From: Balanoglossus misakiensis
Lineage: Eukaryota > Animalia > Hemichordata
Length of the DNA: 64,000 bases
Direction: 5' to 3'
Assembly (NCBI GenBank): GCA_040954595.2
Contig: CM082595.2
Span: forward strand, 2,172,635-2,236,634
In this document: positions 22,994 to 63,628 of the stretch, piece after piece
Numbering within the stretch: the first letter of the stretch is position 1
How the letters are laid out: every line of letters begins with the position of its first letter
The notes under the pieces: generated by a model
What the model was told of the DNA's origin: nothing
What the model saw: the letters and a program-made list of their open reading frames with translations, nothing else
Databases searched by the model: none
Program-made: the position numbers and the translations under genes

Positions 22994-23663
22994 TTCGGCT
23001 GATTCGAGACACGATGTATTCCAAGATTTCTCGCGTGAAGCTAGTGATACACAAAGCCTAACACGTAGGGAATGGACATACAATGAATTGATTGATTGAA
23101 TGCCGCGAAATGGTCATGTCACATGTTAATTTCTACGTCTCATAAATTATTCATAAAACTATTCCAGGGGGCGCACTTTTGACCCCATTTCACAAGAACC
23201 ATCAGAGGCAAAGTCACTTTCCTGCGATGTACCAGCTGATGTGTTGAGGTTGTTGACATGTACTCATGTTGAACGACAACTAGACGGTTCTGCGTGCCAC
23301 GACTCCAGTTTGTAAGCTGTAGGTTTTCCGAGAATTCGAGTAAAGCGGTCACGAACAGACGCATGCAGAGCGTTTGGCCAGGGGCCAGGAAGATGGATGT
23401 TTGTCAACAAGACTGACCAAGGATGACACACATGTTTATTATTGATAAACACACATGAGGTTTGTAGATTGTTACGTGTACTAGAGATTACTTACATGGC
23501 TACTACACTCTTTGCATTAAACTAGAATCAATTTCTACTATACTGCGTTGTTGGTGTCTCGTTTTTACAGACATATGTAGCAATCTTGAGCTTCACTCTC
23601 TTGTTTTATCCCAACATCTTTGAAGACTGAGGTATTTTTCCAGAGATGTAGAAGTTGTCCAAG

Positions 23664-30000: not shown

Positions 30001-30594
30001 TGTCCATATTTGGTGTATTCATTCCATATTTTGATGACTGCTGCCTATTGGCTAATGAGAGGTGACATGGCATTGATTTCAGAATCAGCATCATATTGAA
30101 TCTGACTCTGCCGCCCACAAAGCATCAGCTTCAGCATTAGATTCAAACTTCTACAGTTCTTTTTCCTACCATATTTGGTGTCACCATTCCCCTAAGATCG
30201 CATTTAGTAACTTCTAATAATTTTTAATCAGGAAATTAAATGATTCTTTTTATATTTCCCCCAGTTGAGGCAGCTTGAAGAAGAGAGTCCAAGCAGCCCG
30301 CAGACCGACAGCTCTCCCTCGCCCGAGACTCCACCAAACTACGACGAGTATGATTTAGATCTGGACGCTGATCCGATCATCATCACCGATCCCAAGCGGT
30401 GGTCAGTGGACGAAGTGTCCGACTTCATACGATCTCTCCCGGGATGCAGTGACTACGCTGATGAGTTTCAGTCACAGGAAATCGACGGTCAAGCGCTGCT
30501 TCTCTTGAAAGAAGACCATCTGATGAGTGCTATGAACATGAAATTAGGACCAGCATTAAAAATTTGTGCCAGAATAAATGCCTTAAAGGAGTAA
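27005..30594 (+). CDS. PHC: Polyhomeotic-like protein (PRC1 subunit; HD1, FCS zinc finger, C-terminal SAM)
   Basis: S/T/Q/P-rich N-terminus; HD1 KAIVRPQILTHIIEGFVIEEAKEPFPV; FCS finger CEFCG...KRFCSMACAKRY; SAM WSVDEVSDFIRSLPGCSDYADEFQSQEIDGQALLLLKEDHLMSAMNMKLGPALKICARI. Confidence 0.95.
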
Positions 30595-34700: not shown

Positions 34701-36558
34701 GTCGCCAAACATCTTATCAAGGTAAGTGATATCATTCAGTTGTAGTATTGAACTTGGCCTAAAAGTCAGACTAAATCTCAGTCTGTGTGCGTTACCCACT
34801 ATTTTCCCTTCTTTCTTCCAGAAATTGGTAATGTTATGGAGTTCTGCAGAAGAAACAGTGAGAGTTCTGGCGTTTTTATCGATTTTCCGAATTGCCTTCA
34901 ATTTACAAGATTCTCTGTTGGAATATTGTTTAAAGGTAAGTTTAGTAAAACTGACTGTCAGTCATATGTCATTGCTATGTCTAAATTGTTGTATCAGTAA
35001 AAGTTGAAGTACTAGTATTTTTCACCAATTATTTCCTCATTTTGTTTCTTGCAGCAAATGTACATGGGATATGTACGGAACTGTAAATTCACCTCGCCCA
35101 ACGCTCTGCCAATGATAAACTTCATGCAGCGATCATTGACCGAGTTGTTTGCCATCAACACACAAGTCACGTATCAACACGCGTTTGTGTACATCAGGCA
35201 GTTGGCTATTCATCTGAGAAATGCCATCACGACTAAAAAGAAGGTGAGTGTGTGAAATAATCGTGTCCACTGAATGTATCTTAGCTGTAATTTTTGATAG
35301 CGATCTTTTGTGTGTCCACTACACCTTCTTGTACTTCTTCTGATGACATGCAGATGCTTATTTTTTGAGTCATTGATGAGAATTTTTGTCTGATTTGACC
35401 CTGTAGGATACATACCAGGCAATTTACAACTGGCAGTACATCCATAGTTTGTATCTGTGGTGTCGTTTGTTGAGTACAGTGCACCCTAATGCAACATTGC
35501 AACCACTTATCTATCCACTGGTGCAGATAACTGTAGGAGTTATCAGGTGAGGACATTTTGCTTGAGGGTAACTGCACCCCATCCCACGCCACCCCCACCC
35601 CACCCCAATAGTCCATGAAACTAAGTTACCATTTCAACAACTGTTCATCCTACAACTTTTCATTTATATGTTTCTTCTTGCTCTCCACACTTCCAGACTG
35701 ATCCCGGCAGCCAGGTATTATCCATTACGATTTCACTGTCTGCGCGCTCTCAATCTCCTATCAGAGGCTACAGGAACATTTATACCAATTCTGCCATTCC
35801 TGATGGAGGTGAGTTCATCATTTAACTTCCCTCCCTCTGTATATATGTGTGATGTGTTGGATCTCAACATTCCATAGTAAATGGTGCTATTTTGCAAACA
35901 TGATCATATGACTCATCACTTTTTGTGCTCAACTTCTCAGGTGTTTGAACAGACTTCATGGAACAAGAAACACAGTGCAGCCAGCTTTAAACCAATCAAC
36001 TTTGCCGTTATATTGAAATTATCCAAATCGCAGCTGCAAGAAAGAAGCTTCAGGGTAGGTAACCTTTGACCTCCATAACCTGTCCTTACATCCTCGTGTT
36101 TCTGTTGGTATGAATCTATCAGTCTGATGAAAAACTCATGTATTTTTACTTTCTTTTCTTGATAGGATGGGCTGATTGATCAACTGTACGATATGTTGCT
36201 CGAACATTTGACTATCCACAGTCACTGTATAGGATTTCCAGAGTTAGCTCTGCCGCTTATAATAGAGGTAAGATGTCATTCTGTGTCTTTCTCAAGATTG
36301 TGCAGTTTTGAAAATTAGTTTCCTTACCAAAACTTTATGACAGTAATGTGATGTACACTTTTCCAACTTGCTCATATTAATTTTGTTTTCATTTTAAACT
36401 CTTGGCAGATGAAAACATTTCTGAAGAAGTGCAAAGTTAGCAACTACTGCCGTCAGATGAAACAGCTTCTCGAGAAAATCCAAGAGAATTGTGAAGTCAT
36501 CAATAAACGACGAGATGCTACTACTATCAATCTGAGTGATGAAAAAACAATTGTAAGT

Positions 36559-36593
<35 letters not shown>

Positions 36594-37330
36594 AGAGGGA
36601 GAGAGAGCGAGAAGAGCATGAGTGTGTGTGTGTGTGTGCCTGAATGCAAGAGAGAAAGAGTGAGACAGAGAGGCGGACACTGATTTCATTTTCATGTTCA
36701 CAGGCAAACTGGGAAATCATGAGCAAGCAACAAGGTACACCAATCAGCAAACTGTACGGAACTTACAAGAAATTGAGAGAAAAAGAACTGATTCATGAAG
36801 AAGCAGGCAAAGAGAGGGTAAGAGATGAAATTCTTTGTAAGACAGCATTAGGTTTTGATGGAAAGGGTGCCCTCTGTGTCATCAATTGACTGGTCCTTCG
36901 CCCCAAATGAACGAAGTATGATAATTCCATGTCTAAGAGATCTTACTTTCTTTTCACATTATCGCAGATTGGAAGTGATGAAATTCCGTACATTGAAAGA
37001 AGAAAACAGAAAAAAGATCAGGACAAGAAAGAATTCCAAGGGTTGTTTATGTCCTCGGAGTCTGAAGACAGCGACCCAGAGGAATTCTTCTCTAAGGGTG
37101 GAATGGGAGAGAGAAAGAGGAAGAAGGAAAGCAGCGACGAAGAGGAGAGTGATGACGAGGTAAGCGAGGCAGATGTAAGTGATGAAGAAGATGTAGAGTC
37201 GGATGTTGCCATGGAAACTAAAGAGGAAATTGGAAAGAAACATCGTGTGGATTTGAAGGACATCGGGGAGGAGGAAGAAGATGTTATAGAAGAACTCCAA
37301 CTGTCATCTTCTGAAGACGAGGATGATGAT

Positions 37331-37361
<31 letters not shown>

Positions 37362-37387
37362 ATGATGATGATGAAGATGATGATTAA
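31798..37387 (+). CDS. NOC2L: Nucleolar complex protein 2 homolog, multi-exon
   Basis: Exon 1 is MAAPSAKK|gtaag. Then [95 protein letters not shown] and GFPELALP, ending in an acidic tail. Confidence 0.96.
36558..36640. repeat. Compound (GA)n/(G)n/(TG)n microsatellite in a NOC2L intron
   Basis: Runs are directly visible: gagagaga..., ggggggg and gtgtgtgt. Confidence 0.9.
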
Positions 37388-39096
37388 ATTCGTATTTGTG
37401 TGTAAGAATCCCGACAATAAAATAATATTTCTCTGAAAATTATAAAGTATTTCGCAAATCGAAGTTTTCAATTTTTGGGGTGCATCAACCGCACAATGTG
37501 CACAAGCCATGAAAGTACAAAATTGAAACTTTATTTACAAAAAATATACAAAAAAAAACATTGATAGGAATACTGACACTCATGCCATTAAACGTGACAT
37601 GATCTCTTCAGTAGATTTTCTATCAAATACTTTAAACTGAAAATAAGATGCCAAAAATATGTGGGTAAACTAAAGACTAGTCAATCTAATGGAATATAGG
37701 ACATTTCCTCTCAAATATTGCTTTTTTTCTACTATAGCAATTTTATGTGCATTTAATGCGTAAATGCCAGAAAAAAATATGGCAAGGTCTGGCTACCTGT
37801 ATCTAAAACTACATTTCTATTTGAAATATATAGATAACAAAGTAAATGATTTTAGTATAACAGCTCTAATGATTTGTGCGAGGCTTTGATTTGCCTTGGG
37901 TTACAGTATAGCACCATTTGAAATATGAGTACAATTGTTGTAGTGATTGCTTTTAAACAATAACTGGTAATAATGCCATTTTGTGGCTTGGAAATACCAA
38001 CATGAAGTAATTGTAACATAGAAGATGAACTGTTGAATGTATTTTAACAGGAAAGCCGTAGAAAATCGAGAGACTGCGAATCAAACTATTGGCAGTTTCA
38101 AAATACCAACAAACTTCAATGTGCGCCATGCCACATTTAACATCTCTTCAAAAACGAAAATAAACTGGGCAGCCTTCAGCTGTTTATATATGATTACAAT
38201 GATGATAAAACTGACTTGATAAAAGAAAATATAATTGGAGATATCAAAACAGTTAGACAAAACAGAAAAGTCTGAATCTACTATACGGGAATTATTTCTG
38301 AGAATATAAAATATTTCTGAGAAAATAAACTATCCGTCTGCTGTAAAAGTCCACATTCTTTCCACAATTTCTGACTTGTCTTTCACTTCATGTGCTGCAA
38401 AGTATGGATAGCAATCAGCGGGCTTGCTAATTTTAATCTTACTCGAATTCAAACTATAATCAAGATCACTGGTGCCTTCAACAAGCTCATTTCAAGCCCT
38501 GCTTGTTGTAAAGGTCCCTCAGCTTAAAGTCAGAAATTATAAATGTATATGAACACCTGCATATTATAAAGATTATAAATGTAAAGTAATAGAAAAAGTA
38601 TCTCAGTCCTGTCTGAGCTTTTGAAAAGAATTGTCACTTTTGACTTCAAAATTATTTCTGTGTCCTTTGATATTGCTATCCCATAATAGTCAGTGCTTTG
38701 TTGAATCAGAACTGTCTGTATCCATGGTTACGTGAACATGTTGATTCATGCCAACACACAAGTGTAGTTTTGTTGACAATGTTCTGGTTTCTACACACTG
38801 CATTTTTTTTCTCCAGAAAAGTCAATGTTTCAAGGTGTTTGTGCAGCAGAGAAGTGCACAGATGACCTTAAACTTGGCAGTAGAACTTGCTATTTAATGT
38901 TTTCCATGGCAACCAAAAAGTTGTCTCTTCCAGAAGCTAAGCTTGGTAACTCTCGATCATTCATCCACTTTGCTCTCTGGAGTTATGATGTAGTTACTGC
39001 AACATACAAACGTACATCACTGGAGTGTTCACCTCACAAATGAACAAACAATCCCGGAGGCATGATGAAGTCCATCCAGCCACAAACCAACCACTC

Positions 39097-42000
39097 CTAC
39101 TGGCTGTTCAGCTCATCATAATACTTGCTGCCACGGCAATACATACAGTAGCCCTGTCGTCTGGCAACGTGCAGTCTTATTTTCAGAGCTGGTCCAAGTT
39201 TGAGTCCAAAGTTATGAAGCAGATGATCTTCGGTGAGTAGTGGCAATGTTTCTCCATCGATGGCTTGATCTTTGAATATCTGAAACAATGATCACAAATT
39301 TTATAAATCATCTGCAATTAACACTTTTAGTTCTATTTTTCCACTGATAAAACAATGAAGCAGTTCTCACCTGGGCGTACTCAGAACAGCCATTCAGTGA
39401 CACTACAAACTGATAAACATCCTCCACCGTCCAATTAGAAAGGCTCTCTAAAGGAGCTGAGCTGGCATTGACAACAACTGTATCCGATGAGGGTCTGGAC
39501 TGGTTGCTATGGGAACTGTTGGCATGGGAACTGCTTTGGTGGAAAGGCATGTCGTGTCTACTTTTCAGTTCGATGTACATTCCATTTCTGTTCGTGGTGT
39601 TACCTCTGTCATGGCTGTGGTGGTGTGAGGCCAGCTCTGAATACCTGCTGTGAAAGAAATATCGGTACCTGCATTAATCAAAGTACCTTGTATCTGAATG
39701 TGTCTTCACTGTGTCGTTTTGAGACTACAAATCGATCCTTGTGGGTGATACAGTATGCAGTTCATGATTTGACCACACGTGGTTAAACACACACACAGTT
39801 TCTACACACCTTCCATTGTAGGTGTTTTGCCTGTTGATTGGGAATGTTGACTTCGAAGAACCATAGGTCAAGGTGATTGTTGGTCCACGACCTTGTGTCT
39901 GTCAATAAAAAAAGGATGAAGCAGAAGGTCAGTATTGCTAATTTTCATCATTGATTTCTTGCAACTCTGTACTCTGACCTTTTTGTGCCAGTATTGACTC
40001 GTATACTAAATGAGTTCTTTGGGGTCACAGGTTATGACCTACCTCTGGGTCGTGATGTTGAGGCATACTTTGCTTGCGGGATTTGTGCAACTGTTTGCCG
40101 AGCAATGTGGAGTGTTGAGAATTGGCTGGTGACATTCTGTCAGAATCGGTTGGTGAAAGTGGATTGCCTTGTAGAGATCTTTTTGTATGTTCTGCTGTGA
40201 AGAGAAGAAATATTGTGAGTGAAGGGAAAGGAGTGTGAATTTCTCTAATTCTGTGTTTGAGTTTGGGTTGGAGATGTACCTTTGCAGGGAGCCCTCTAAA
40301 ATCGAAAAGAAATGACAGAAATTACCCAGATGCTGGGGCTCCAGGGAGTTTGCTAATTCATAAATTCTTCTCTGTTCCTCATAGCAAACGTCTTCACCAT
40401 CAATATGGATGTCTCGGTCATCATCTGTGCAAAAACAACAGAAAAAAATAAGTTGAATGTAATTTAAAACAAAGGAAATTCAGACTGGATATATTCTCTT
40501 TGTTGTGAACTTTTACTGTGGTAATATTTGTTCAAATTCATAATTTTTTTCCGTACCTGTCTGGGGAGACGAGCTTCTTCTTCTCTTTGAGGCAACAGAA
40601 GAACTCTCTCGGTCAGGGCATGGTCTCTTTCTATGTTCAGTGTCAGATGGTGATGACCGCCCACTGGGATCTAGCTGAGAACCACTGGCTTGGTGTAAAT
40701 GTGATATAATGGCCGACAGACCACCATTGGAACTGTCAAAGCTCCTGACAATAAAACAGGAAGTTTTGGTTTGTCATTTTCAATAATATTACATAATTGT
40801 TTTAAAGTTTTAATAGTCCCATACAAGACTTTATACATGTATATGTATTGACCAATCAGAACGCTCGATACTTTGGCCTACGTCATTATTCAATCTGGGG
40901 GTGTCCGGCTATGTTTCTAGCGCCACCAACACGTTTACATTTTCCTCACTTTTGTTTATTTGTTAAAAATGTACGTCTATCGACTTTATATTGTAACCCA
41001 CCCCTTCTAACGAAATGGCGAGTGTAAAATAAAACTTTTAAGTTGTAAAAACTCTCGGAAAACCCGAAAAACAAGGTCCATGGATCGGGCCATGGACCGG
41101 CCGCCATTGATCCCAGAGTCCTTTGCGGAAGAGATTGTTCTATTCAATCTGGGGGTGTCCGGCTATGTTTCTAGCGCCACCAACACGTTTACATTTTCCT
41201 CACTTTTGTTTATTTGTTAAAAATGTACGACTATCGACTTTATATTGTAACCCACCCCTTCTAACGAAATGGCGAGTGTAAAATAAAACTTTTAAGTTGT
41301 AAAAACTCTCGGAAAACCCGAAAAACAAGGTCCATGGATCAGGCCATGGACCGGCCGCCATTGATCCCAGAGTCCTTTGCGGAAGAGCCGGACACCCCCA
41401 GATTGAATAGAACAATCTCTTCCGCAAAGCACTCTGGGATCAATGGCGGCCGGTCCATGGCCCTATCCATGGACCGTGTTTTTCGGGTTGTCCGAGAGTT
41501 TTTACAACTTAAAAGTTTTATTTTACACTCGCCATTTCGTTAGAAGGGGTGGGTTACAATATAAAGTCGATAGTCGTACATTTTTAAGCACAGCGCCACC
41601 AGCGGCCGAGCAGGGGTTGCTGTTCTTTATGCAAAGTACTTACCCTTTCCTGCTTCTCTCGAGCATGCCTGGCGGTCCCGTGATTTCTCGCGTGATTGTG
41701 ATTCCGCTATAATCATTCTGACTTGGTCGTTTTGTTGGAACCATCGTCGGCGCTGAGGTTCCACGCTTGTCGGCAAGTCGCCCACGGTTCTGTCATAAAA
41801 AAAAGCAGAAAACGAACTTTTGAAAGTTGGCACGCTTGGCAAACAGCGCAATCATGCAGAATAAAGTGGGCAAACTGGTACAATATTCAATTTCGTTGCA
41901 ACATCTTTTTCATTCAATGCTCTATATATATTTTATGAATTATGCTTTACTTTTAAACAACATATGTTCGTTGCTCGCTAGCTGTTTCAGCTTACTTCGT

Positions 42001-43841
42001 CGGAGCACAGGTTGCGAGATTTATAGCCCAGCTTTTCATTTCAAAGATGTAAATTACACAGTCATATATGCAATTTAAATTTGAAAGACAATGACGCGAC
42101 TGATTCTAACCACAGGTGTGCTGACACGACATGCCGCACAATCGCATATTGGTGGATGCGTTTGCAGGAGTCCCCTGTTCATCAGCGTTTTCAAACATTT
42201 GCCCCGATGTCGGATACTTCTCTTCCAGTCCTTCGCTGTCTCTCGTCCACTCACGAACTGAAATTCGTTTGGTGTCAGCCACGAATTCTGCAAAGGGGAG
42301 AAACAGCAGGTTAAATATCTCTCGCCGGAAGCGGACAATTTGAAATGAAGCTCACTTCTTATCCTTAACGGAATGATTTGGGGTAAGTTGATTGATTTGC
42401 TGTTAACTTTCCGATACAATAATCCAAACAGTTAGCTGACAGGGTTCTGGCCAAAACCATGATATAAATTCGAAATATCGCCGGAAAAAACGAAAGAGGC
42501 CATGCCCCCTCGTACACAGCGCCCCCAACGTACCTTGAATAAAATACACTGTCCCTTACTTCCCTGGCAAAGCTTGGCGAGATACAAGTTCGCTTTATTT
42601 TCACCGCATTCAATCTCCAGTATAGGCTGGCCGTCGTCATCAAGAGCTGGTTTGAAGTCGTCGGTTGAACGCACTGGATAATCTGACGCCTGTGTGTAAA
42701 ATGACCAAATAGTGTTGTGGGAAATTAATATTAATATGTTTGGGGGGATTTTCCCTGTCAACGGTTTTACAATTTCCCGTTTTAATCGACAATCTTCGTT
42801 AGCAATACAGGATAAAGAGCTCCCCCTTCAAAGAACCAATAACATCTGTCTAGGAAGGAAAAGCGGAATGTGCCTTTTGTGATAAAATAGTCGTTAAAAG
42901 TGAATCTTGTATTTCTGCTAACTCATCTTCCTCTTTCCTCTCAAAGTGAACTGAAAAAGCGACATGGCATTTGACTGAATATCCCGCCATTTCCTTGCAG
43001 ATGTTATAAGTTCAAGGAGGAATATGCGCGTTAATTTTTTAAGCAGTCGCATCTTTTTGTCGTCTGCGAGATCTTTGTTCTTTTAACGTTGTCGTTTTTC
43101 TGCGCATACTACAAGCATGTCATTTATCATTTTTGTTGAGAAGTCAGCCTACACATAAAACGATTTCCGGAGGTACAATGTGGTTTCGCGATATCATTAA
43201 ACGAAAATAACCTGGCTTCGTCGATGTTACTGAAAAAAATGATTAAATCCCGCGGTTGGTGGAGCGTGGATGTTGTTGGTTATATTTATCACGCGCTATA
43301 TTCACGTGATCATGCCGCAGGATAAACACAGATGGTGTGTAACGTCGGAAATCGTGCACGAGCGATCGACAACAAATTTTCAGCCCATGCGCGCTTTCAC
43401 GCACAGTATATACATATTTTAAAAAACGGACAGAAAGACCAGAATAGAAAGACGTTGATTTATGGTGTGTAGCTCAGGAAATAAACGCAATTATGAAGTT
43501 TGGGTAATTGGACAGACCTCTGCGTTGAAATCCTCGCTGGAATTTCTGCTGTAGTCATCGTTTCCGCCGCTGTGTGTACGATCACGATGTTCACTCTTTG
43601 ACATTTCACGATCTTCATCGCCATCTTCATCATCATCGTCGTCATCATCATCATCATCATCGTCGTCGTCGTCTAGATCGGGAGTGTTATTATCCGCGTC
43701 TCTGGCGGCTTGTCCGTTTTCCGTCCTCTTTCCTTCCTCGATCTCGTCCGGCTTCTCTTGTTTGATTTCTTGTTTCATCGACGACAAAGGGGTGTTGTCG
43801 GCGGGATCCGGCGATCCCGAGGACACAGAGTCGGTTGCCAT
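39097..43841 (-). CDS. SAMD11: SAMD11/SAMD7-like SAND + SAM domain transcriptional repressor, multi-exon
   Basis: SAND region DFKPALDDDGQPILEIECGENKANLYLAKLCQGSKG...WLTPNEFQFVSGRETAKDWKRSIRH...HPPICDC...TPV|NRGRLADKR closely matches the recalled long vertebrate SAMD11 isoform. SAM domain: WTVEDVYQFVVSLNGCSEYAQIFKDQAIDGETLPLLTEDHLLHNFGLKLGPALKIR. Convergent with NOC2L. Confidence 0.92.
40887..41587. repeat. Composite repeat: two ~254 bp direct copies plus an inverted ~200 bp copy, with MITE-like 24 bp terminal inverted repeats
   Basis: 40887-41140 is nearly identical to 41141-41387. 41386-41587 is the reverse complement of about 40963-41164. TATTCAATCTGGGGGTGTCCGGCT (40887 and 41141) pairs with AGCCGGACACCCCCAGATTGAATA (41386-41409). 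Confidence 0.9.
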
Positions 43842-46599
43842 GGATACCAGTTACTGAGAACCTACATGTTGAGAAGAAGAAAAGGCGAGGCGTCAGAAAC
43901 CAGCAAATGAAAATAGTGGCGCCTATACCTCAGATCTCATTTTTTGGCCAAATATCGTATTTCTGGATTATCACCACATGAAAACGGACAAAATCCAACT
44001 TTTAAGGGGCCGTGGCTGTTGGTCTAATTTTTGACACCATTACAATGTTTCTTCCTTGTTTTATAACCATTTTCTCATTCAACAGAATGCTCGATATCGT
44101 TTATTTGAAAATGTGCAAGTGTAATATTCGTGAACCGAAACCCTAGTTGTAAGACGCGACGCGACGCGACGCGGCGCATGCCTGTCCAATCGTTTCGGTA
44201 CGTGAATACGCCCACAATCTCCTCGCTCTGGTCGCGGGGTCGTCACCCGGGGGCGTCGATCTGCATATACTGTTTGTGCAGACACGTTGTATTTTTTTTC
44301 TCGGGTACTAAGCATTTTCCCTTTGGGAGATGGGCTTCCCGCAAAATGGACCGTGCCCTCGAGTACTTTTTTCGCGGTTGCATATGCAAGCCAGTCATCC
44401 GTACGGTGTCGCTATGCACCCTCGAGTTCGCTTCTCTTTTGACAAGTTGTACTCGAACATTCCAGACCAGTTCGACACACCCACGCGATCTCCCGAGTCA
44501 AATTATATAACGAATCGCGCCTGCATCATGTACATAGGACTTTTAGTTTTACAAATGGTGCCAACCTTGACCGAACCCACTACATTCACCGACTTTCATC
44601 TGATATGAAACAGGGTGAAAACATACTGGTAACTTCTGTTTGCCCTCTGAACTTCGCCTTTATGAAACATGCGACTGAAGATATTCTTCTGCTTCTCGTT
44701 TTTAATGAAATAAACTTTAAAATCCGATTGAATTCCCGACATACAACGATTGGTATACACTGAATGTATAACGCGCTGATCCCTTCCACTGTGAACGGGC
44801 CGAGGTTTGTCATTAAAAGATTAAAAGTTAAACCCGGAGTTCATGAGACGGTGACGAGGTCATCTACTTGCACCGTTGCCACAGAGTTACAGAGGTGCTG
44901 TCTCCGAGCTCCACGAGCAAATGGTAATGGTCGATGACGAAGACGTTTCAATGATAATCCCGCGGCTTCTTTCCCCGTCGTTACTGCATGCGCATTCGCT
45001 AGCTGCTTTCCCGTCTCTTAGCCCTTATAGACCATAGACCAGTAAATTGACGAATGTTTTCAAATTCAAGATTCCCGGATTCGCATACCATACCGTGAAG
45101 TCTGCTGCTCAAACAATATTCTCTATTCTCCTCCTTATAGGGCAAAGCCATCGCCATATATATTAACTTTGTTCACGCAGGAAAACTTACCCCGTTGCTA
45201 AGAAACGGGGCGTCCTCCGCTTCCATCTTAACTACGTCACGCCCACGGTGGTTTTGACCACAAATATTGGAATCTCTTAAATCAATCCCGCGAACAATTT
45301 GCTGTATTCAAAATGCGGTCGTACCGTCATCAATTTTGCATTTTCGTTTGAGCGACGGCTCATAAAATTTATTTGCACTCGACTGTGAAAAAAAAATCCC
45401 ATAATTACGCAAATTGAGAAAATAATACAATATGAGGTGCAAAAGCAAATTAATACGGAAACCGTAAATACGATCGGGCAGTCAGAAAAAAACATGCGGT
45501 CATTTAAAGTTACTTTCGTGTTTTGCCTGCGGTGTGCGCTTTGTAATTTCCGACGATTAATATGTGCACGTACGGTATTTGAAAGTCGCTTTTACGGATA
45601 AAAAAAAGCGGGTCGCGGTTATCGCGCATTTTTGAGCACTAAAGCTTATCGGCGTGAATTTAGAATCTCGCGCTGCATGCGATGTTCATTTGGGGCGGAG
45701 TGCGGAATTTTGGGGTCTTGCAAAATACACTTCCGTCAGCGGTAATCTGATTCCGCACTTCGCTTGGAACTGATAAGCACTTGTCCCAGTACTGCAGTGA
45801 ACTGGAACTATGCCCGGAGTCAGAGAAGAAAAAAAACGTGTGCGCATCCGTCCCCGAGTTAGCTAAGCCCCGATAAAAGCTCTCATTTGCCGTCGCGACT
45901 ATTTCCGCTGGCTGTTTTGGGTTGCAGTCCGCATTTATCACCGACTGAGGAATCAGCTTGCGGAAGTCTGCGAGCTGATTCCGTTTCGAAACATCAATAG
46001 TGGGCAGGCGAATAATATGTGCATTTCTGGCAGAAATGTACATTTCTATAGTGTTGGTGAATACTGCTTGGGTTGTTGACGGCGATGGAGCGATCGTACG
46101 GCCAGCGATTTCGCTGGAAAATCGCAGGCTATGGCCGTCGACCTGCTTGTATGCAAGAATTTGCCCGGGCACGCATGTAGTGGTTGATTTCGAGGTTGTC
46201 TGAAAATAGACACATACAGTTGGGTGACCCTCTATAGCAGCGCTGATCTGCATACGTAATGAGACACCACTACTTACTTTCGTCAACTCCACAAAGTTTT
46301 TAAAAGAAACGAAAACTTTGTCAGTGTTGGCGGGGAGCGAAAGAGCGGAGCTAGGCGCACGCAATGGCGATTTTCGGCCTGCACGAACGGTATCAGATCT
46401 TGGCAACGACTGCGTAGTGCTGTGGAGACGATGTAGGCGGGAAGCGAGAAAAACGCCATGATCGCTCGCATAGGAGTCATTATATATGCGACGTAAATAA
46501 GCCGCCCCATTGTGCGGTGGCTGGCTGGGCTGGGAGACATACAATCAGAGTCTAGAACTTACGATAACAACGCCACTACCTGACGACACTCAACCACGA

Positions 46600-46775
46600 A
46601 CTCCACGACACGTCCGCGGCAGCATAGAACGAAAATGGCGACGTGTCAGAGTCGGACGACGGTGCGAAGCAGATTCGCCACCAAGCGTTACGCTACGTCA
46701 CGTCCGTATCGATTTATTGAATGCCGACCACGATCGCCGCTGATTGGCCGTTACGACATGACGTCATGTCCGACA
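46600..46775. promoter_or_regulatory. Candidate promoter/enhancer motif cluster between SAMD11 and SLC2A
   Basis: Perfect 16 bp palindrome GACATGACGTCATGTC (46755-46770) with a CRE core, a reverse CCAAT (ATTGG ~46743) and a YY1-like AAAATGGCG (~46632), within a CpG-rich region. Confidence 0.4.
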
Positions 46776-48608
46776 CATGCTGTTACGCTAAAATAGCACA
46801 CTCCCCAACGGGAATACATGATTAAACACTAATAAATATGCAGTGCACGTCGTCGTCACCTTCGACCCTGAGACGACAATCTGTCGTCAACAGTTTGATG
46901 GCGTTGTGTATCGGCGACCTCCAGCGTACACACGCAGGCGTCCGTAAAAACCTCATATAAGGCATATGGCTTCTGCCATTTCAGTCGCCTGCATTGCCGT
47001 GACGGCGACATTTGAACCACTGTCGTTTTAACTCAGATCGCGGTCGTCGACATTTTAACTAGGCGGGACCTCTACCCTGGTGTCTGTGACGTATGAAAAG
47101 CGAGAGCGAAACTTCGATTGTTGACGGATGTTAAGGTCTTTCATTTGACTTTAAGCGAGAAGGGAACACACGATTCCTCCTGAAACCACGTGGCGGCACA
47201 GTGAAACATACACTACCATTTAACACACGCGCGCGGGTGGCGGAGATACGTCGCCCCGCCCCTGAAATTGACAAAAGTAGGCCATGTCGTCATAGAGACG
47301 TGTTCCGGCACAAGCGACATCCGCGACCGGTGGCAAAGGATAGACCACACCCACATGCGACTGTAGGACTATTCGGTTTTAAGTTACAGAGATGTAAAAC
47401 ACGACCTGAAATGAAAATAAAACAATAAGTTTATTCACAATTATTTGTCGCCTAGCGACGTTTCGTAACGTGTCATATCCTATATGTATTTCTGATTATT
47501 TTATATGCAATTCTCTTCCAATGAGACTCATCAAAGTATATTTCCTGTCACGTTGAAGTATCGCTATCGGACTGTTTCGCCCGGCTTCTGAAATTGACAC
47601 GCGCGCACCTGCTATTTCGAACTTAGTGAAATAGACATGGGTCGGACGCGCTTATGATGAAATGTACATGAGGGACACCGTTCATTTGTACAGAAGCAAA
47701 CGTGTTATTTGAACCAAAGAGAATCGAAGCAAATGAAACGCAAATTGACGTTTGATACAGACATTAGCATCTCTAGATTCTGAAGAAGCGACTTTGCCAC
47801 AGTATAGAAATTAGAGACGTACTGGGCCATGTGGGCTGGGCAAAGGAGATGCCGTAACCATGACAATCGAACCGGCTACCACTCGTCGCCAAAATGGTGC
47901 GCGAAGCTTTCGTGAATTTCATTCGCTCGTACCGCCAAACTGAACTGAAAAAATGCAGACTTTTCTTGATGTTCACCTCACGTAAACCTGCGGATATTTT
48001 AAGGTTTCCCAACGCGATCTCTCGGGGCCTCGTGAGACTAACTAAAATGTTCCGCTGACGACAGAGCGGCGCTTTCCGCTTTTATCGTGACGTCGCCGTC
48101 GTCTGCGGGCAGAAAGACTTGCAGTCGCGTCAGGCACCGCTCTTTTTCCAAATCAGGTCATCGAAAGACATCTCTGGAGAAATATAAAATTCGATACTGT
48201 GTGGACAATCTGTCAACTATGGTTCACGCTTGTGTGATTGGTATCAACATGTGTTAAAATTTGCTAGTCGCCTGAATTCGAAAACAGTGAAAGTGTCTTG
48301 ATGTACAGTATTGATGGCTCACAGCACAAGATCTTGCTCTCCTGAAAAACAGAGAGACTGTGGTCGAGTGGACGACGGAGAACTATGTCTTATTTAAGTT
48401 ACAGAACAGTTTATGGTATAGTACGCTGGCCTGAGTTCATTCAATTTATAAGTCTGATGTCACATGACTTCGGTCACATGACAAGTTCAACTTTGACCCA
48501 GGACTGTCAACATATGCACGCTACACCACGCAATGGGGCGGTGCTGATTACATACACAAGACGTCGCGGTTAAACTTCGTTGGTTTCACAGAACATTTAG
48601 CAAAGATC

Positions 48609-57602: not shown

Positions 57603-57801
57603 AAATTGCTTTCAAGGAAAATTTCCTGTATCTATAATCAAAACACAGCAGATGGATATTGAAGGAAACAGACAAGAGAAACTAAAAATAAACACCATTT
57701 CTGGTTGTTTTTATTTGTCTTATTCATTCTTACCATATCCACTAGACTTTATACTAGAAGAATGTAAACATTTATCCAATTAAAAAAAACATAGCAATAT
57801 T

Positions 57802-59550
57802 CTAGTACTTGTTTTCAAAGGGATTACCGCCAAGTCTTGGGTACAATGAACTCAGAACTTGATCTATTTCTTGAAATGCCTGAAAATTAGAAAAGATAGA
57901 AAGTCCAGTCAGGAAAACATGTAGTGTCTAAAATTGCACAGGCAACAATAGTGAGAGGTTGTAATGTAATTTTTGCTAGCTTACCTCCGCTGTAGTTTGT
58001 GTCGATATACGGATGACAGCTCCATTGATGTGTTCTCCGTTCACTGTGTAGTTCAAATTGCTTACACTCACCATTTTGCTGCTGTCATACTTGGAACCTG
58101 GAGAAGAGAAACACAATTGGTTTTTCACGAGTGGTAATGGCTTTTAGTGTTACTGAGAATTAGCGTGAGAATACAAAAACCTTACCATATGGTTTACGTT
58201 TTCCAATACGAGATGCAACTTCCTCGCATAGTGATTTCAGTTGTGGCCCTAGCAACACACACATAGCAACCACACAGAAACTACCCATGGCTTGTTTCAC
58301 CAATATGGTAGGTCTGTCATCCATTGTTACAGCGTCTCTGAACACCAAGCTGTCTTCCAAGTATATTGAGTTTTGACTGGAATATCTGTGTGAAAATATT
58401 ATGGAAGACGTAAAGTATTGGGAGATGTGTTCCAACAAAAGGCAACCCTAGACATTGACCCCCTCCAATTACCCACAATCCCATGCACATACCTACCTCG
58501 TGAACTGCCAAAACTCTCCACTTGCTATTCTACCTGCTGTCAGCCAGTCAAGTAAAATCAGATTTGAATTCTTGGATAGATGAATTACCTGTGATGTTGA
58601 AACATGATATTGAAGAAAAATGTAGAAAAATATTGTCATAATCTCACCAAATATTGCAAGTCGTATATACACAAGTGAATAAAATATTGAAATTTACATG
58701 TATGTGTGTATGTATCCATTTACCTGAGATTGTTGATACCTAGCATTGTTGAAACACACAATAGGATCAGGTAAAACGGCCAATAACCCATCAGATTCTA
58801 CTTTTGCAGTGAGAGTTTGTTTACTCACCAGGCCATCAGACTTGTAAATCTAAAAATCAAAAAGTTTCATTAGCCCAAAATTCAATTTACAGTGGTAAAA
58901 TGCAGTGATGCAAAAATGTACTATGATGTGTTTTACTGGAAAATCCAGCCAAAGATGAATTGAAAGTTAACAAAATAAATTGAATGAAATATGTATGAAC
59001 AGATTCACTTCTAATTTTCATAGGCAATACCTTTGTTGAACCTTGTGTAGTCATGACAACACAGCATCCTGTTCCTACGGTGATATTCAAATTGATATCA
59101 TCTCCCGCGAGTAGGCCGCCACCATAGGATATTGGGTACAACCACTTTGCATTTGATCTGCTGGCGTGCTTCGGTATCATTAATTTCAGCTGTTAATTAG
59201 TCAAGAGAATGGCTGGGGATAATCTTGTCTGAGATGTGGTAAACCTTTTTATTTTTCTGAATCATTTATGCGTCTAGATTTTTGTTCAACAGAAAATGAT
59301 ACTGATCGATTAATCAAGATCCCAGAAGCTTTGGATGAACCCAACATGTTCTTACCGGATAGGAATATTGTAAATTAGAAACATATGATTGTCTGTTTCC
59401 ATGGCAATCTGTTTTATCTTCATCAGCAGCCGGTTGAAATTCTGCATACCCAACTGCATGTGGGCGCTGCTCTTCAGGGTCGAATTTCAACCGTTCTGGA
59501 CAATCTTCGACAACTTCTGGCGATAAAGTGTTGATGTTGTGGTTGAGCAT
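57802..59550 (-). CDS. ureD: Urease accessory protein D (UreD/UreH), multi-exon
   Basis: Spliced product: ...LQYSYP|LKLMIP...WLYPISYGGGLLAGDDINLNITVGTGCCVVMTTQGSTK|IYKS...LLAVLPDPIVCFNNARYQQSQ|...LILLDWLTAGRIASGEFWQF...LVFRDA...CVLLGP...GGNPFENKY*. The YPLK, YGGGLxxGD, TTQGSTKIY, LPDP and DWLTxGR motifs are diagnostic of eukaryotic UreD. Introns are GT-AG. Confidence 0.93.
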
Positions 59551-59993
59551 TCCATGCGATCTAGTTGGTGCACTGAAATCAGATCAGCAAGTCGGTTATC
59601 AATAGATACTGGGCTGATCATGCATGGTGCGTTGGTAGAGAAAAGGAGATGTCTGATTTCGTCTGCTGCGAATTTGAATATCTTGTTCGTTTTAAACGTC
59701 TGCCGTACAAATTACTGGGTCTTTCTAAATGAAATCATGAACCCCACAGAATTAAACTTTCAAACTGTTTACCTTCTTGTTCAAACCGATCAATAACAAC
59801 CACACAAAGCTGGGAAATAACGACGATCAACTCTTAGTGGAGGAGTGACCCTGGGCTGTCTGCTGCGACTAGGAGAGTAGTCAGGTGACTGGTACATTTA
59901 GCCAATGACAAGACGTATATAAAAGTCACCTGATAGAGGTCAAAGGTAATATGTTCGCTACCACGTGAAAGTGGCCTTCGGCTGTATTGAATA
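59551..59993. promoter_or_regulatory. Putative bidirectional promoter of ureD and ureF
   Basis: 443 bp between the divergent ATGs. It contains TCAGGTGACT (59881) and its inverted copy AGTCACCTGA (~59924) flanking CCAAT (59902) and TATATAAAA (59916), a DR1-like AGGTCAAAGGTA (59937) and a CACGTG (59962). Confidence 0.6.
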
Positions 59994-61819
59994 ATGTCAA
60001 ACCTACTTTCTCTGCTCCAGATAGCGGATTCAGGTTTGTAGCATTGGCATGTTAGTTTAGAGTGAAGTATTAAGTGTGTATAATACGAATATTTGTTCGG
60101 TGGATAGTTGGTAGGGCTACGAACTCGCAGCAACTTACGGGCATGTACAGCGTGTGCATATGATCTAATGACTCGTTCCGCCATTCATTGACACTGACCA
60201 TACATAACATTTGTTTCTTGGTACAGCATTCCCAACTGGTAGTTTTTCCTACAGCCTTGGCTTAGAAGCAGCTTTTCAACAAGGTCACACAAACGGGACA
60301 GCCAAGTTCCAAGACTTTATCATGTGCTGCTTGGAAAACGCAGGTAATTCTGATCTAACAGTGGTCCAGGGTACTCTCTGGGGAAGTATGTATAGCACAG
60401 TGACTTTTTTAATAGCACAATATATCTGGTCTCCTATGAAAATATTAATGGTAAATGAATTGGACGGATGAAGCTGTAAGGGAGCTTTCAGTTATTATGA
60501 GGGGGGTGGGCCAGGGGACATTGGGGACGACCTCCATCACGTATAGTGTGGCCCTCCCCATTTCCTCTGGTCAACCCCTTAATATCTCCATTTGTATTTT
60601 CTGGTTACAGGTTCTTTCAGTTTGCCGTTTGTCAGAGCAGCTTACGAGAAAAGTGGCAACATTACTGAGATTCAAAGGATTGACAGTTTCTGTGAAGCCT
60701 GCATAAACAATCATGTAGAAAACAGAGCAAGTCGTAGACAGGTAATAATGGTCTCCTTACCCCATACCTTTAATGCCTAAGACAAGGAATTGACATGGTG
60801 AATTGACCTTTGACATGATCTTACTGAACAAAAATCTCGTTTCAGGGCAACTCCTTAGTTGTGACGGCAACGCAAACATTTTCAGATGAAAGATTTAACA
60901 AATTTCAGGTAAGGCTGTGGTAAACTTTCATACCAGTACATTGTTACCAACCAATCTTTGTGCAAAGTCATAAGTTTCATGTTGGGATGTAGGAGTATTC
61001 TTTTTCACTTGTCCATTCTTATGTCCGAAGAACTTATTCTTTAATGTCTCTCTACTCTCCTCAGCAAGCCATTGACGACAAGGAGATGCAGGGACACTAT
61101 GCTGTAATGTTTGGTTGCACCTGTGCGTATCTTGACATCAGCGAGGGCGCATGTCTTGAAACGTTCATGTTTGGAGTGTTGAGAACTATCATGGCCAGTG
61201 CTGTCAGACTTGGAACAGTAGGTGCTTTGGAGGCAAGTTTTACATTCCCGCATTATTTAAAATAACTTAGGGCACTAAGTCCATTGGCATACACTACATA
61301 GTTTGTCAGTAGGCTGTGTCTTCAACCCTTTCACCCCCAGTTCCCCCTTTAGAGGTCCATCCTAACCATGGAAAACAATGGGTTTGGACTGAACCATAGT
61401 GGTGAAGGGGTTGACTTACACATCCTCTCAAAACCTCTATAGGAACACTGATTACATTTCAGCGAAACCTGTCTTCTTTTGGTACACTCTATATGATCCA
61501 CTTTTGTTTTTTCTTCTTTACAGGGACAAAGACTTCAGTATGAGTGGCAGAGTGTTATTCCAGATATTATCACCAGGTAAGTCTCAATGTTGACTGATTC
61601 ATTGTATGTGTTCTTCATTTCACTGGGCTACTTAACCCTATTTTAATTATTTTGATTATTATTTATTTTATTTTTTTCTCATTCATTTGATTATTATTTA
61701 TTTTATTTTTTGTCAGAAATATGGACAAACCAATTGAAGAGGCCTACCTATCTTTTCCATTGGTTGACATCATTGAAAATACCCATGATACTTTGTTTTC
61801 GAGATTGTTTCATTCCTAG
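59994..61819 (+). CDS. ureF: Urease accessory protein F (UreF), multi-exon, one GC-AG intron
   Basis: MSNLLSLLQIADS|AFPTGSFSYSLGLEAA...GSFSLPFVRAAY...NNHVENRASRRQ|GNSL...GHYAVMFG...FMFGVLRTIMASAVRLGTVGALE|GQRLQ...FPLVDIIENTHDTLFSRLFHS*. The LQxADSAFPTGxFxxSxGLE, ASxxQG, SAVRL and HxxLxSRLFxS motifs are diagnostic. Confidence 0.95.
61322..61414. mobile_element. Small MITE-like element (piggyBac-like ends) in a ureF intron
   Basis: 14 bp terminal inverted repeats TCAACCCTTTCACC / GGTGAAGGGGTTGA with one mismatch. The internal CAATGGGTTTGGACTGAAC recurs in reverse complement at ~138-156, and a similar end (GGTGAAAGGGTTAA) occurs at ~9768. Confidence 0.55.
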
Positions 61820-62143
61820 CAGAAAATGAAATTTGCCAACATCTATTTATTCATTATCTTGAAACAAGTTTGCCTATGTACAAACACAAATGAAATGTTA
61901 TCTTCGACAGAAATGAAAATAAAATATTTTTGTTTCAACAGAAGGTCTGAGCAAGCAAGTAAGAGATGTAAGGTTGGTACAAATACCTTTTTTCAGTTTT
62001 GTGTGTGAATGTGAATGGGTGAGCCACTTATTCTCAGAAGAAACTTAAAATTTATACAGTCAAACCTGTGTTAAAGGCTACCTGTCAATAATGGCCAATT
62101 AAGGAAAGTCCCATTTCAACGCAATTACCCAAAGTAACTGATT

Positions 62144-63628
62144 CTACGACAACCATCTCTCGATAAAAGTCTTCTTTTTCACGTGTTCCATGTTTTCACA
62201 AAAACTCAAGTCAATTTCAGTGGGGTTCTCGGTCCGATCTCTGAGAATTTCTTCTAAACAGTCGATGGCAATCGCATCAAAGTCTATATGAAATTTATTA
62301 GCAAACATTTGCGGTTGCTGGACAATGCGAGGCAGGTCGCGTACCGTGAATATGCAAATTTCTCTGACGTATACACCATAGCAGAAAATGTCGCTCGCAT
62401 CTGATCGTTTTCTCCACAACTTTTCCCGTGTGATGTCCTCCTTCGTGTCGAATTGAAACCCGCCGGGAGCGTCCGCAAGTCTGCTGAGAGTGGAAAAGTA
62501 ATGTTCATCCGGGCACGCTGTGTCGGGTAACCAATCCTGCAGTGCTTTTGCACGCTCATCCTTAACTGCAAATTCTACAAAATCTCTGGTCATTGTGACG
62601 TGAAACTCTCCCTTGTATATTGTTAAATTTCTTGGCGGGGGTGTTTTAAATCTGAGGGGCATTTTTCGAAAGAGGTCGCCCCTCCGAAGTACGTATTCAT
62701 AGAGTTGTCTTCCCGGGTGTGGGTTCCTGATGCTGTGAATGTCATTTTGTCCGTTCAGAGTTTTCAGCATTTGCACGATCTCCAAGTTGGTCTTCAGGGG
62801 GAAGTCTTGCCCGCAGAGGTTGATGTAGTACTTCCAGGATCTCCGCCGTTTTAACAGATCCTTCATACAGTTCAGTTCCGCCTGCAGGACGCTGAATGTA
62901 CAGTGCGTGACGGTCTCCAACTTGGAGGCAACGAACACGTTGTCAAAGCAACTGGCGATGTACTTCATCGCGTTGATGGTTTCCAGGGGAGACTTAGCGT
63001 CCACGTGGATGCAGTACGAGTTTTGTGGCATGTAGATCGTGCGTAGCAACTGCTCGGCCTGCTGGGCAGACTTGTACATTAAAATGCTGTAAGCTATCGG
63101 GAACTCCGCTTCGAGACGGGAGCGTGGTGTGCTGTAATATCCCCCATTTTCGCGGAATTTCGCACAATCCAGGGTCATCTCGTAGTAATCTTCATCCTCA
63201 ATTATATTCCGCTGTGAGAATCTCTGTATTCTCCCCATCTTAAAATTAATTAATAAGTCCTCAATTTTCCAAGATAAAATTTCACGACAGGTAAAGTTCA
63301 TACCAAAGTCCTCCCTCTTCTTCTGCAATTTTGCGATCGCCTTTTTCGCGAAATTCTCGTCATTATTTAGAGTATCGCTTTCGGGGAAAGTGTCGAAATC
63401 GTCACCGATGTTCTCATAACCTTCCACGCGAAGTAGTTTCCATGGTAACGATTTCTTAACATCAAGGCGGAGTTTTAGATTACTGCCGATAAACAAAACC
63501 TGTATAAACCCGACGACTATCAACACCACCGTCATTATTTTCAAGCGTTTACGTAGTCTGGTCTCCCCGCCTGGATTTTCGTTCCCATATTCGTTTGGCG
63601 CACGTTGTTTCCTTGGAAACACCATCAT
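62144..63628 (-). CDS. GCNT: Beta-1,6-N-acetylglucosaminyltransferase (core-2/I-branching, GT14), single coding exon, type II membrane protein
   Basis: N-terminal TM (VVLIVVGFIQVLFIG), then EAEFPIAYSILMYK, LLRTIYMPQNSYCIHVDAKS, LQAELNCMKDLL, WKYYINLCGQDFPLKTNLEIV, PDEHYFSTL, REICIF and FANKF. First in-frame ATG is at 63628. Confidence 0.95.
   Translation of the reverse strand: MMVFPRKQRAPNEYGNENPGGETRLRKRLKIMTVVLIVVGFIQVLFIGSNLKLRLDVKKSLPWKLLRVEGYENIGDDFDTFPESDTLNNDENFAKKAIAKLQKKREDFGMNFTCREILSWKIEDLLINFKMGRIQRFSQRNIIEDEDYYEMTLDCAKFRENGGYYSTPRSRLEAEFPIAYSILMYKSAQQAEQLLRTIYMPQNSYCIHVDAKSPLETINAMKYIASCFDNVFVASKLETVTHCTFSVLQAELNCMKDLLKRRRSWKYYINLCGQDFPLKTNLEIVQMLKTLNGQNDIHSIRNPHPGRQLYEYVLRRGDLFRKMPLRFKTPPPRNLTIYKGEFHVTMTRDFVEFAVKDERAKALQDWLPDTACPDEHYFSTLSRLADAPGGFQFDTKEDITREKLWRKRSDASDIFCYGVYVREICIFTVRDLPRIVQQPQMFANKFHIDFDAIAIDCLEEILRDRTENPTEIDLSFCENMEHVKKKTFIERWLS

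What the first reader, a model, noticed from the sequence alone, without database searches (positions are those of the whole stretch)
57802..61819. Head-to-head, intron-containing urease maturation genes (ureD/ureF) in an animal genome
Seen: complete spliced ureD(-) and ureF(+) with intact motifs, ATGs 443 bp apart, among metazoan genes (PHC, SAMD11, NOL7). Established: UreD, UreF and UreG assemble the nickel active site of urease, UreD and UreF form a direct complex, and vertebrates, insects and nematodes lack the system. Inference: this animal has its own nickel-dependent urease pathway, and the two partner subunits are co-regulated from one bidirectional promoter, an operon-like arrangement. 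Possible roles are urea nitrogen recycling, or carbonate/pH supply for calcification. Urease genes are reported in some invertebrates, so the genes themselves may not be new; the divergent pairing may be. No ureG or urease structural gene is in the window.
Basis: partly seen in the sequence, partly recalled or inferred. Interest (0 to 1): 0.82.

Follow-up and report, generated by a model that had tools for sequence, protein, structure and literature searches.

The report
Acorn worm's paired urease helper genes
This animal genome, likely an acorn worm's, carries two intact, intron-containing genes for the nickel-loading helpers of urease, placed head to head with 443 bases between their start codons and likely sharing one promoter; such genes are likely an old inheritance already annotated in many invertebrates, and only the pairing seems undescribed.

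Summary
ureD (- strand, 7 exons, 320 aa) and ureF (+ strand, 7 exons, 224 aa) are intact, with 443 bp between the ATGs. Their closest relatives are Ptychodera flava proteins (72% and 77%), so the host is likely a ptychoderid acorn worm. The genes are ordinary for invertebrates: named homologues occur in eight other animal phyla. Animal copies form one clade, and all 6 ureF intron positions recur in non-hemichordate gene models, which points to vertical inheritance. Animal urease is in print (PMC3073912). The pairing is likely conserved: P. flava UreD and UreF have consecutive accessions on one chromosome; Glandiceps has them on one contig, order unknown. It is not a relic of the nearest bacterial operons (0 of 43 loci adjacent). 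Tight head-to-head spacing is normal here, though (3 of 4 divergent pairs in the window). Co-regulation, expression, and a urease or ureG in this genome could not be tested. Calcification is not a general explanation. Verdict: real, modestly interesting.

The parts
57802..59550 (-). ureD, urease accessory protein D, 320 aa; coding exons 59550-59356, 59189-59031, 58849-58724, 58588-58497, 58385-58186, 58097-57985, 57879-57802
   Evidence: open spliced frame, all introns GT-AG; Pfam PF01774 on exons 2-5; 72% to P. flava XP_070561445
59994..61819 (+). ureF, urease accessory protein F, 224 aa; coding exons 59994-60033, 60227-60343, 60611-60741, 60846-60908, 61065-61232, 61524-61576, 61717-61819; intron 5 has a GC donor
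   Evidence: Pfam PF01730 on exon 5, weak on exon 3; 77% to P. flava XP_070561447
59551..59993 (.). 443-bp divergent spacer, inferred shared promoter; GC 42%, CpG o/e 0.81 against 0.39-0.47 in the two gene bodies
   Evidence: start sites not mapped
59881..59933 (.). candidate promoter core: a 10-bp inverted repeat with an E-box-like CACCTG core (59881-59890 and 59924-59933) around a CCAAT box (59900-59908) and a TATA box (59918-59925) that face ureF
   Evidence: weak: 19 of 200 shuffles give an inverted repeat of 10 bp or more, and none of the three motifs is enriched window-wide
59487..59555 (-). out-of-frame upstream ATG 5 nt before the ureD start, opening a 22-codon frame that overlaps the ureD start; would dampen UreD translation
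   Evidence: sequence; function inferred, conservation untested
57715..57715 (-). AATAAA downstream of ureD (first base), facing the AATAAA of the convergent NUC129-domain gene at 57687 (+)
61918..61918 (+). AATAAA downstream of ureF (first base); lies beyond the AATAAA of the convergent branching-enzyme gene (61851, - strand), so the 3' ends would overlap

Best explanation
The window holds intact, spliced ureD and ureF genes head to head, and they likely make the UreD-UreF scaffold that loads nickel into this acorn worm's own urease (predicted to be encoded elsewhere with ureG), likely from one shared promoter that keeps the two partners at matched, low levels. Shown: gene structures, spacing, family identity, an animal clade in both trees. 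From established biochemistry (PMC10121161): UreD docks on apo-urease, UreF bridges to the GTPase UreG, and nickel passes through a tunnel in UreFD to the active site. Inferred: (1) the genes descend vertically from at least the cnidarian-bilaterian ancestor; (2) the pair is also adjacent in P. flava, so the linkage predates this species; (3) it arose by eukaryotic rearrangement, not as an operon relic; (4) it is kept because UreD and UreF act 1:1 and excess of either hinders activation; (5) the pathway ends purine and arginine catabolism by turning urea into ammonia and carbonate for reuse or excretion.
For: Intact frames, and residues equivalent to H. pylori UreD D61, Q80, K84, E140 (as Asp) and R146, and UreF D40, P44, G46, S47, S51, G53, E55, H244 and R250, are kept. 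Animal UreD: 8 of 8 rows on one side of a branch, SH-aLRT 99; animal UreF: 15 of 15 named rows, 99, with a cnidarian/bilaterian split and a hemichordate clade. Breaks in other animals' truncated or alternative models fall on window intron positions in 9 of 13 ureF comparisons, covering 6 of 6 introns, and at 2 ureD introns exactly in a snail. P. flava UreD XP_070561445/6 and UreF XP_070561447 are consecutive on a 47,284,028-bp contig; both Glandiceps genes are on a 19,391,087-bp contig. In 43 of 80 bacterial genome loci holding both genes, none has them adjacent or divergent. Urease is reported in Nematostella, Strongylocentrotus, Branchiostoma and Ixodes (PMC3073912), lineages where UreF was found here. 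Overexpressed UreD or UreF interferes with activation, and plants use upstream AUGs in the ureF leader (PMC3130180).
Against: No urease, ureG, nickel transporter, transcript or start site could be examined for this genome. Tight divergent spacing is common in this window (3 of 4 divergent pairs under 1 kb), so it does not by itself show functional coupling. The Glandiceps accessions are 353 apart, so adjacency there is not shown. Priapulus ureD and ureF models lie on different scaffolds (219,080 and 92,664 bp), although both lack their 5' ends. Promoter motifs are not above chance. H. pylori tunnel residue UreF E85 has no acidic match in the alignment, and gate F112 is Asp; both features are shared with the nearest bacteria.
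Confidence: 0.6

Rival explanations
1. The genes are functional urease helpers, but the pairing carries no special regulation: it is an old linkage kept by inertia in a tightly packed housekeeping region where most divergent neighbours share open promoter chromatin.
For: SPAG7-like/POLR2D (260 bp) and RCC2-like/C7orf25-like (399-670 bp) are equally tight and functionally unrelated; 3' ends crowd or overlap on both sides of the pair; promoter motifs are at chance level.
Against: That two subunits of one complex are neighbours among roughly 20,000-30,000 genes (gene count recalled) is very unlikely by chance, so some ancestral clustering or selection is needed at the origin; the pair is apparently kept in P. 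flava.
Confidence: 0.27
2. UreD and UreF are orphans or repurposed: this lineage lacks an active urease, and the pair serves another metal-handling job.
For: No urease or ureG in the window; hemichordate UreF has Tyr where 40 of 40 bacteria and 9 other animals have His (H. pylori H50 position); an earlier unchecked note describes orphan cephalopod UreG.
Against: The urease-contacting UreD residues (D61, K84 equivalents) and the UreG-facing N-terminal UreF motif are kept; urease is reported in close deuterostome relatives (PMC3073912).
Confidence: 0.08
3. The pair is a recent horizontal gain or contamination from a bacterium or fungus, with adjacency left over from the donor's operon.
For: The nearest non-animal hits are bacterial (Planctomycetota, Verrucomicrobiota, Myxococcota) at 31-42% identity.
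Against: Twelve spliceosomal introns, metazoan neighbours, monophyletic animal clades that follow the animal tree, intron positions shared with cnidarians, chelicerates and amphioxus, and a donor gene order that never places ureD next to ureF.
Confidence: 0.02
4. The pathway mainly supplies carbonate and pH for biomineralisation.
For: Proposed for corals in the literature (recalled; the coral papers were seen as listing only); microscopic carbonate ossicles are reported in some acorn worms (recalled).
Against: UreF is held by non-calcifying animals: ticks, horseshoe crabs, a tardigrade, Priapulus, Nematostella. Published readings for coral and tubeworm hosts are nitrogen recycling (PMC3750612, PMC8789280).
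Confidence: 0.05

Closest known systems
UreD(UreH)/UreF of H. pylori and K. pneumoniae (PDB 3SF5, 4HI0, 8HC1, 8HCN; PMC10121161)
   Same: Same families (profile E 1e-23 and 1.5e-18); most interface and tunnel residues kept.
   Different: Spliced eukaryotic genes; gate F112 is Asp, E85 has no acidic match, H50 is Tyr; no ureE or operon.
Annotated invertebrate urease accessory proteins (e.g. S. purpuratus XP_787021, Nematostella XP_001637079, Stylophora XP_022789774, Priapulus XP_014670075, P. flava XP_070561445-7)
   Same: Orthologues at 35-77% identity, one clade, shared intron positions.
   Different: Nothing at protein level beyond a hemichordate His-to-Tyr change; their genomic pairing was not found described.
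Two-chain urease operons of Planctomycetota, Verrucomicrobiota and Myxococcota (ureD-ureAB-ureC-ureF-ureG)
   Same: Nearest bacterial sequences found.
   Different: Same-strand operon with the urease genes between ureD and ureF; 0 of 43 loci adjacent or divergent.
   Same: Urease maturation genes physically linked, in part in opposite orientation.
   Different: Those include the enzyme and the transporter; here only two accessory genes; cyanobacterial kinship was not tested.
Animal head-to-head pairs of partner proteins, such as HSPD1/HSPE1, COL4A1/COL4A2, PPAT/PAICS and DUOX/DUOXA (recalled)
   Same: Divergent genes for one complex or pathway with starts under 1 kb apart.
   Different: Those have mapped start sites and shown co-regulation; this one has neither.

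Membership tests
UreD (PF01774) | profile match above the gathering score | tested here: met
   exons 2, 3, 4 score 41.4, 39, 28.7 bits against 27; exon 5 scores 24.8
UreD (PF01774) | urease-contact and tunnel residues (H. pylori D61, K84, S81, E140; gate F112) | tested here: met
   D95, K118, G115, D174 kept; gate position is D146, as in 8 of 8 animals and 37 of 40 nearest bacteria
UreF (PF01730) | profile match above the gathering score | tested here: met
   exon 5 scores 45 bits against 23.3; exon 3 scores 17.3
UreF (PF01730) | N-terminal FP-G---S-G-E motif and C-terminal H-----RL--S tail | tested here: met
UreF (PF01730) | acidic tunnel residue (H. pylori E85) | tested here: inconclusive
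   aligns to S56 in a gapped region; E50 is nearby and acidic in 11 of 14 animals; not acidic among the commonest bacterial residues either
urease maturation system | urease and UreG encoded in the same genome | not testable with these tools
   no genome held; absent from the window
urease maturation system | UreD and UreF form a complex and activate urease | not tested
   taken from bacterial structures (PMC10121161)
bidirectional-promoter gene pair | divergent genes with transcription starts under 1 kb apart | tested here: met
   ATGs 443 bp apart, so starts lie closer unless a distant 5' exon exists; starts not mapped
bidirectional-promoter gene pair | shared cis elements and co-expression | not testable with these tools
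   no RNA holder listed; motifs at chance level
bidirectional-promoter gene pair | conserved linkage | tested here: inconclusive
   P. flava consecutive accessions (indirect, orientation unknown); Glandiceps same contig; Priapulus different scaffolds
operon | same-strand genes on one transcript | tested here: not met
   opposite strands
eukaryotic metabolic gene cluster | three or more pathway genes, including the enzyme | tested here: not met
   only two accessory genes in 64 kb; the window ends 2.2 kb after ureF, past an unrelated gene

The most novel reading that the evidence does not exclude
The ureD/ureF head-to-head pair is an ancient, conserved regulatory unit of animals, kept across deuterostomes or all bilaterians. 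Its symmetric promoter and an upstream out-of-frame ATG set a low 1:1 output of the nickel-tunnel scaffold and respond to nitrogen or nickel. It would be the first described control element of a native animal nickel-enzyme pathway, one present in the cnidarian-bilaterian ancestor and lost in vertebrates and insects.
Probability: 0.15. Interest if true: 0.65.

Novelty: new variant of a known kind. Interest (0 to 1): 0.38.

Why it matters
Nickel biology is usually treated as microbial, fungal and plant (recalled), and urease activity in marine animals is often credited to symbionts. Intact, intron-conserved UreD and UreF across nine animal phyla argue for a native animal nickel-delivery pathway that vertebrates lost. 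A compact two-gene unit gives a simple handle on how it is regulated. If the pairing is only local packing, the finding is two more members of families already annotated in invertebrate genomes.

Tried and rejected
Whole-genome search: no genome held. Sequencing runs: no RNA holder listed, so no reads were laid; this is no evidence either way. Metagenome scan for animal contigs holding both genes: of 80 loci kept, two (L001, L002) carry an intronless UreF that groups with Stylophora, with 164 and 422 bases upstream and no ureD, so uninformative. A 5'-UTR intron in ureD (donor 59772, acceptor 59572) that would remove three further upstream ATGs: donor 6.6 and acceptor 2.1, below all 12 training sites (7.2-13.4 and 7.0-19.2), so not supported. 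Promoter motifs: not enriched (13, 16 and 47 of 100 shuffles reach the counts). NCBIfam: no hit for 4 of 4 hemichordate proteins. Protein atlas: only UreF clusters. Supplements of the hemichordate genome paper PMC11175523: no urease terms or ids in 8 files held, one cut and one further file too large to read. Riftia supplement unreadable. PMC2944026 and PMC13751858 passages held nothing on this. No structure or complex prediction was run, because a textbook pair would pass by likeness to solved structures. The careful UreD tree did not finish; both trees are quick trees with midpoint roots and no clade test.
Full report
Observation. I rebuilt both genes from the sequence. ureD runs on the - strand from ATG 59550 to the stop at 57802 in seven exons (320 aa, six GT-AG introns of 88-181 bp). 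ureF runs on the + strand from ATG 59994 to the stop at 61819 in seven exons (224 aa; five GT-AG introns and a GC-AG intron 5). There are 443 bp between the ATGs. Pfam confirms both families on single exons. No urease subunit or UreG is in the window: 17 bacterial queries gave two chance hits, while the UreD and UreF controls hit. The flanking genes are metazoan-type.

Host. The best hits are hemichordate. UreD is 72% identical to Ptychodera flava and 68% to Glandiceps talaboti; UreF is 77% to P. flava, 71% to G. talaboti and 59% to Saccoglossus. In both trees the window is sister to P. flava (SH-aLRT 93) within a hemichordate clade (99, 98). The host is therefore likely a ptychoderid acorn worm (lineages), not P. 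flava itself.

Are the genes unusual? No. Named homologues were returned for hemichordates, echinoderms, amphioxus, molluscs, an annelid, a priapulid, chelicerates, a tardigrade and cnidarians, many already annotated as urease accessory proteins. No vertebrate, insect or nematode name appeared, but these searches are of limited sensitivity. Strope et al. (PMC3073912, passages) list urease in Nematostella, Strongylocentrotus, Branchiostoma and Ixodes and find none in Drosophila or human. Urease and accessory genes are annotated in Acropora (PMC3750612, passages), and host urease activity is discussed for Riftia (PMC8789280, passages).

Origin. The UreD tree has 59 rows: 8 animal, 7 named fungal, 4 unnamed and 40 bacterial; other hits were left out. 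It puts the animals on one side of a branch (99), and animals, fungi and three unnamed rows apart from the bacteria (96). The UreF tree has 66 rows: 15 named animals, 11 unnamed and 40 bacterial from the odd-numbered genome loci, with no named plant or fungus. It gives an animal clade (99) split into cnidarians and bilaterians. Both are quick, unrooted trees.

Intron positions give independent, indirect evidence. I compared truncated or alternative protein models of other animals with their full-length siblings. In 9 of 13 ureF comparisons at least one break falls within a residue of a window intron. Together they cover 6 of 6 introns: intron 1 (Limulus, Lytechinus, a member of the Stylophora cluster), 2 (tick, amphioxus), 3 (tick, amphioxus), 4 (amphioxus), 5 (Nematostella, Stylophora cluster, amphioxus) and 6 (tick, Limulus). 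Three comparisons were alternative starts that match no intron, and the tardigrade was ambiguous. For ureD, 1 of 2 comparisons was informative: a Batillaria model breaks exactly at introns 5 and 6 and across intron 4. This points to an intron-bearing ureF in the cnidarian-bilaterian ancestor and rejects recent transfer or contamination.

Function of the proteins. From the bacterial cryo-EM work (PMC10121161, passages), UreD binds urease, UreFD recruits UreG, and nickel moves through a 100-angstrom tunnel. Sequence mapping shows the UreD equivalents of D61, Q80, K84, E140 (as Asp) and R146 are kept, and so are the UreF N-terminal motif and C-terminal tail. There are differences. The gate F112 is Asp, as in 8 of 8 animals and 37 of 40 nearest bacteria. 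E85 has no clear acidic match. H50 is Tyr in 4 of 4 hemichordates, against His in the 9 other animals with that column and 40 of 40 bacteria. Binding and activation were not tested.

The pairing. Direct synteny data were not available, so I used accessions. In P. flava, UreD is XP_070561445/446 and UreF XP_070561447, both on a 47,284,028-bp contig; consecutive numbers strongly suggest neighbours, with orientation unknown. In G. talaboti both lie on a 19,391,087-bp contig but 353 accessions apart; NCBI numbering is not strictly positional (recalled), so this is open. In Priapulus they are on different scaffolds, and both models lack their 5' part, which an assembly break between head-to-head genes would also produce. 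So 1 of 3 testable species supports adjacency and 2 are inconclusive. Among the nearest bacteria, 43 of 80 genome loci held both genes; none had them adjacent or divergent, and the commonest order was ureD-ureAB-ureC-ureF-ureG. In the 80 metagenome loci, 12 held both, none adjacent. The animal arrangement is thus not a remnant of those operons.

How special is the spacing? Not very. SPAG7-like (ATG 8493, -) and POLR2D (ATG 8754, +) are 260 bp apart, and RCC2-like (22993, -) and C7orf25-like (23393 or 23664, +) 399-670 bp (gene names partly recalled). Only the SAND-gene/sugar-transporter pair is several kb apart. What needs explaining is that the two neighbours are partners. The spacer has raised CpG (o/e 0.81) and a symmetric-looking core: inverted E-box-like 10-mers around CCAAT and TATA boxes. 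But 19 of 200 shuffles give a repeat as long, and the motifs are not enriched. An out-of-frame ATG five bases before the ureD start opens a 22-codon overlapping frame. Plants have upstream AUGs in the ureF leader, and excess UreD or UreF hinders bacterial activation (PMC3130180, passages), so damping is plausible but inferred.

Mechanism and rivals. Most likely (0.6): a working UreD-UreF scaffold for the animal's own urease, from a shared promoter that matches the two subunits. Next (0.27): working genes whose linkage is kept by local packing without special control. An orphan role (0.08), a mainly calcifying role (0.05) and transfer or contamination (0.02) are less likely.

Novelty. Ten literature searches found no description of an animal ureD/ureF pair or of hemichordate urease genes; the library lacks most subscription papers, and unseen supplements of PMC11175523 and PMC8789280 might bear on this. 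The scan's notes held nothing on this pair; related notes came up. I rate the genes as known and the arrangement as a new variant of a known kind, interest 0.38.

Noticed in passing
window 8493 (-) / 8754 (+): SPAG7-like (R3H domain; name recalled) and POLR2D/RPB4 genes head to head, 260 bp between ATGs.
   Followed up: partly
window 22993 (-) / 23393-23664 (+): RCC1-repeat gene (RCC2-like) and DUF5614/DUF1308 gene (C7orf25-like) head to head, 399-670 bp between candidate ATGs.
   Followed up: partly
window 32569-43841: Noc2-family gene (+) convergent with a SAND-domain, SAM-like gene (-); NOC2L and SAMD11 are convergent neighbours in human 1p36 (recalled), so this may be ancient microsynteny. 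A PHC-type SAM gene lies next to them (27005-30594).
   Followed up: no
window 61233: ureF intron 5 has a GC donor, while read-through models of Nematostella, a Stylophora-cluster member and amphioxus continue with Val at the same position, as a GT donor would give.
   Followed up: partly
window ureF codon 22 (exon 2): His-to-Tyr change in the UreF N-terminal motif in 4 of 4 hemichordates; His in 9 other animals and 40 of 40 bacteria.
   Followed up: partly
window ureD exon 1, residues 48-53: A Cys-His motif in an N-terminal insertion kept in 3 of 3 hemichordates (His also in Solemya) and unaligned in bacteria; possible metal site, untested.
   Followed up: no
P0003, P0004, P0005, P0015: Mollusc UreD has Glu (4 of 4) at the tunnel position where H. 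pylori has S81 and the hemichordates Gly; a Lys there blocks the bacterial tunnel.
   Followed up: no
window 62144-63628 (-): Intronless core-2/I-branching glycosyltransferase whose polyA signal lies inside the predicted ureF 3' UTR; CpG o/e 1.13.
   Followed up: no
window 42000-48000: CpG-rich stretch (o/e 1.2-1.4) with a 294-codon stop-free frame at 45660-46544 (-) that has no Pfam hit.
   Followed up: no
L081-L160: 31 of 80 bacterial loci show only ureF-ureG by my motif scan, some with 8 kb on each side and no urease or ureD detected; three Planctomycetota loci have ureFG convergent with ureD-ureAB-ureC.
   Followed up: no
P0165-P0169; P0103, P0154: Rhipicephalus microplus and Lytechinus pictus each have two UreF gene ids; true duplicates or haplotypes, not resolved.
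   Followed up: no
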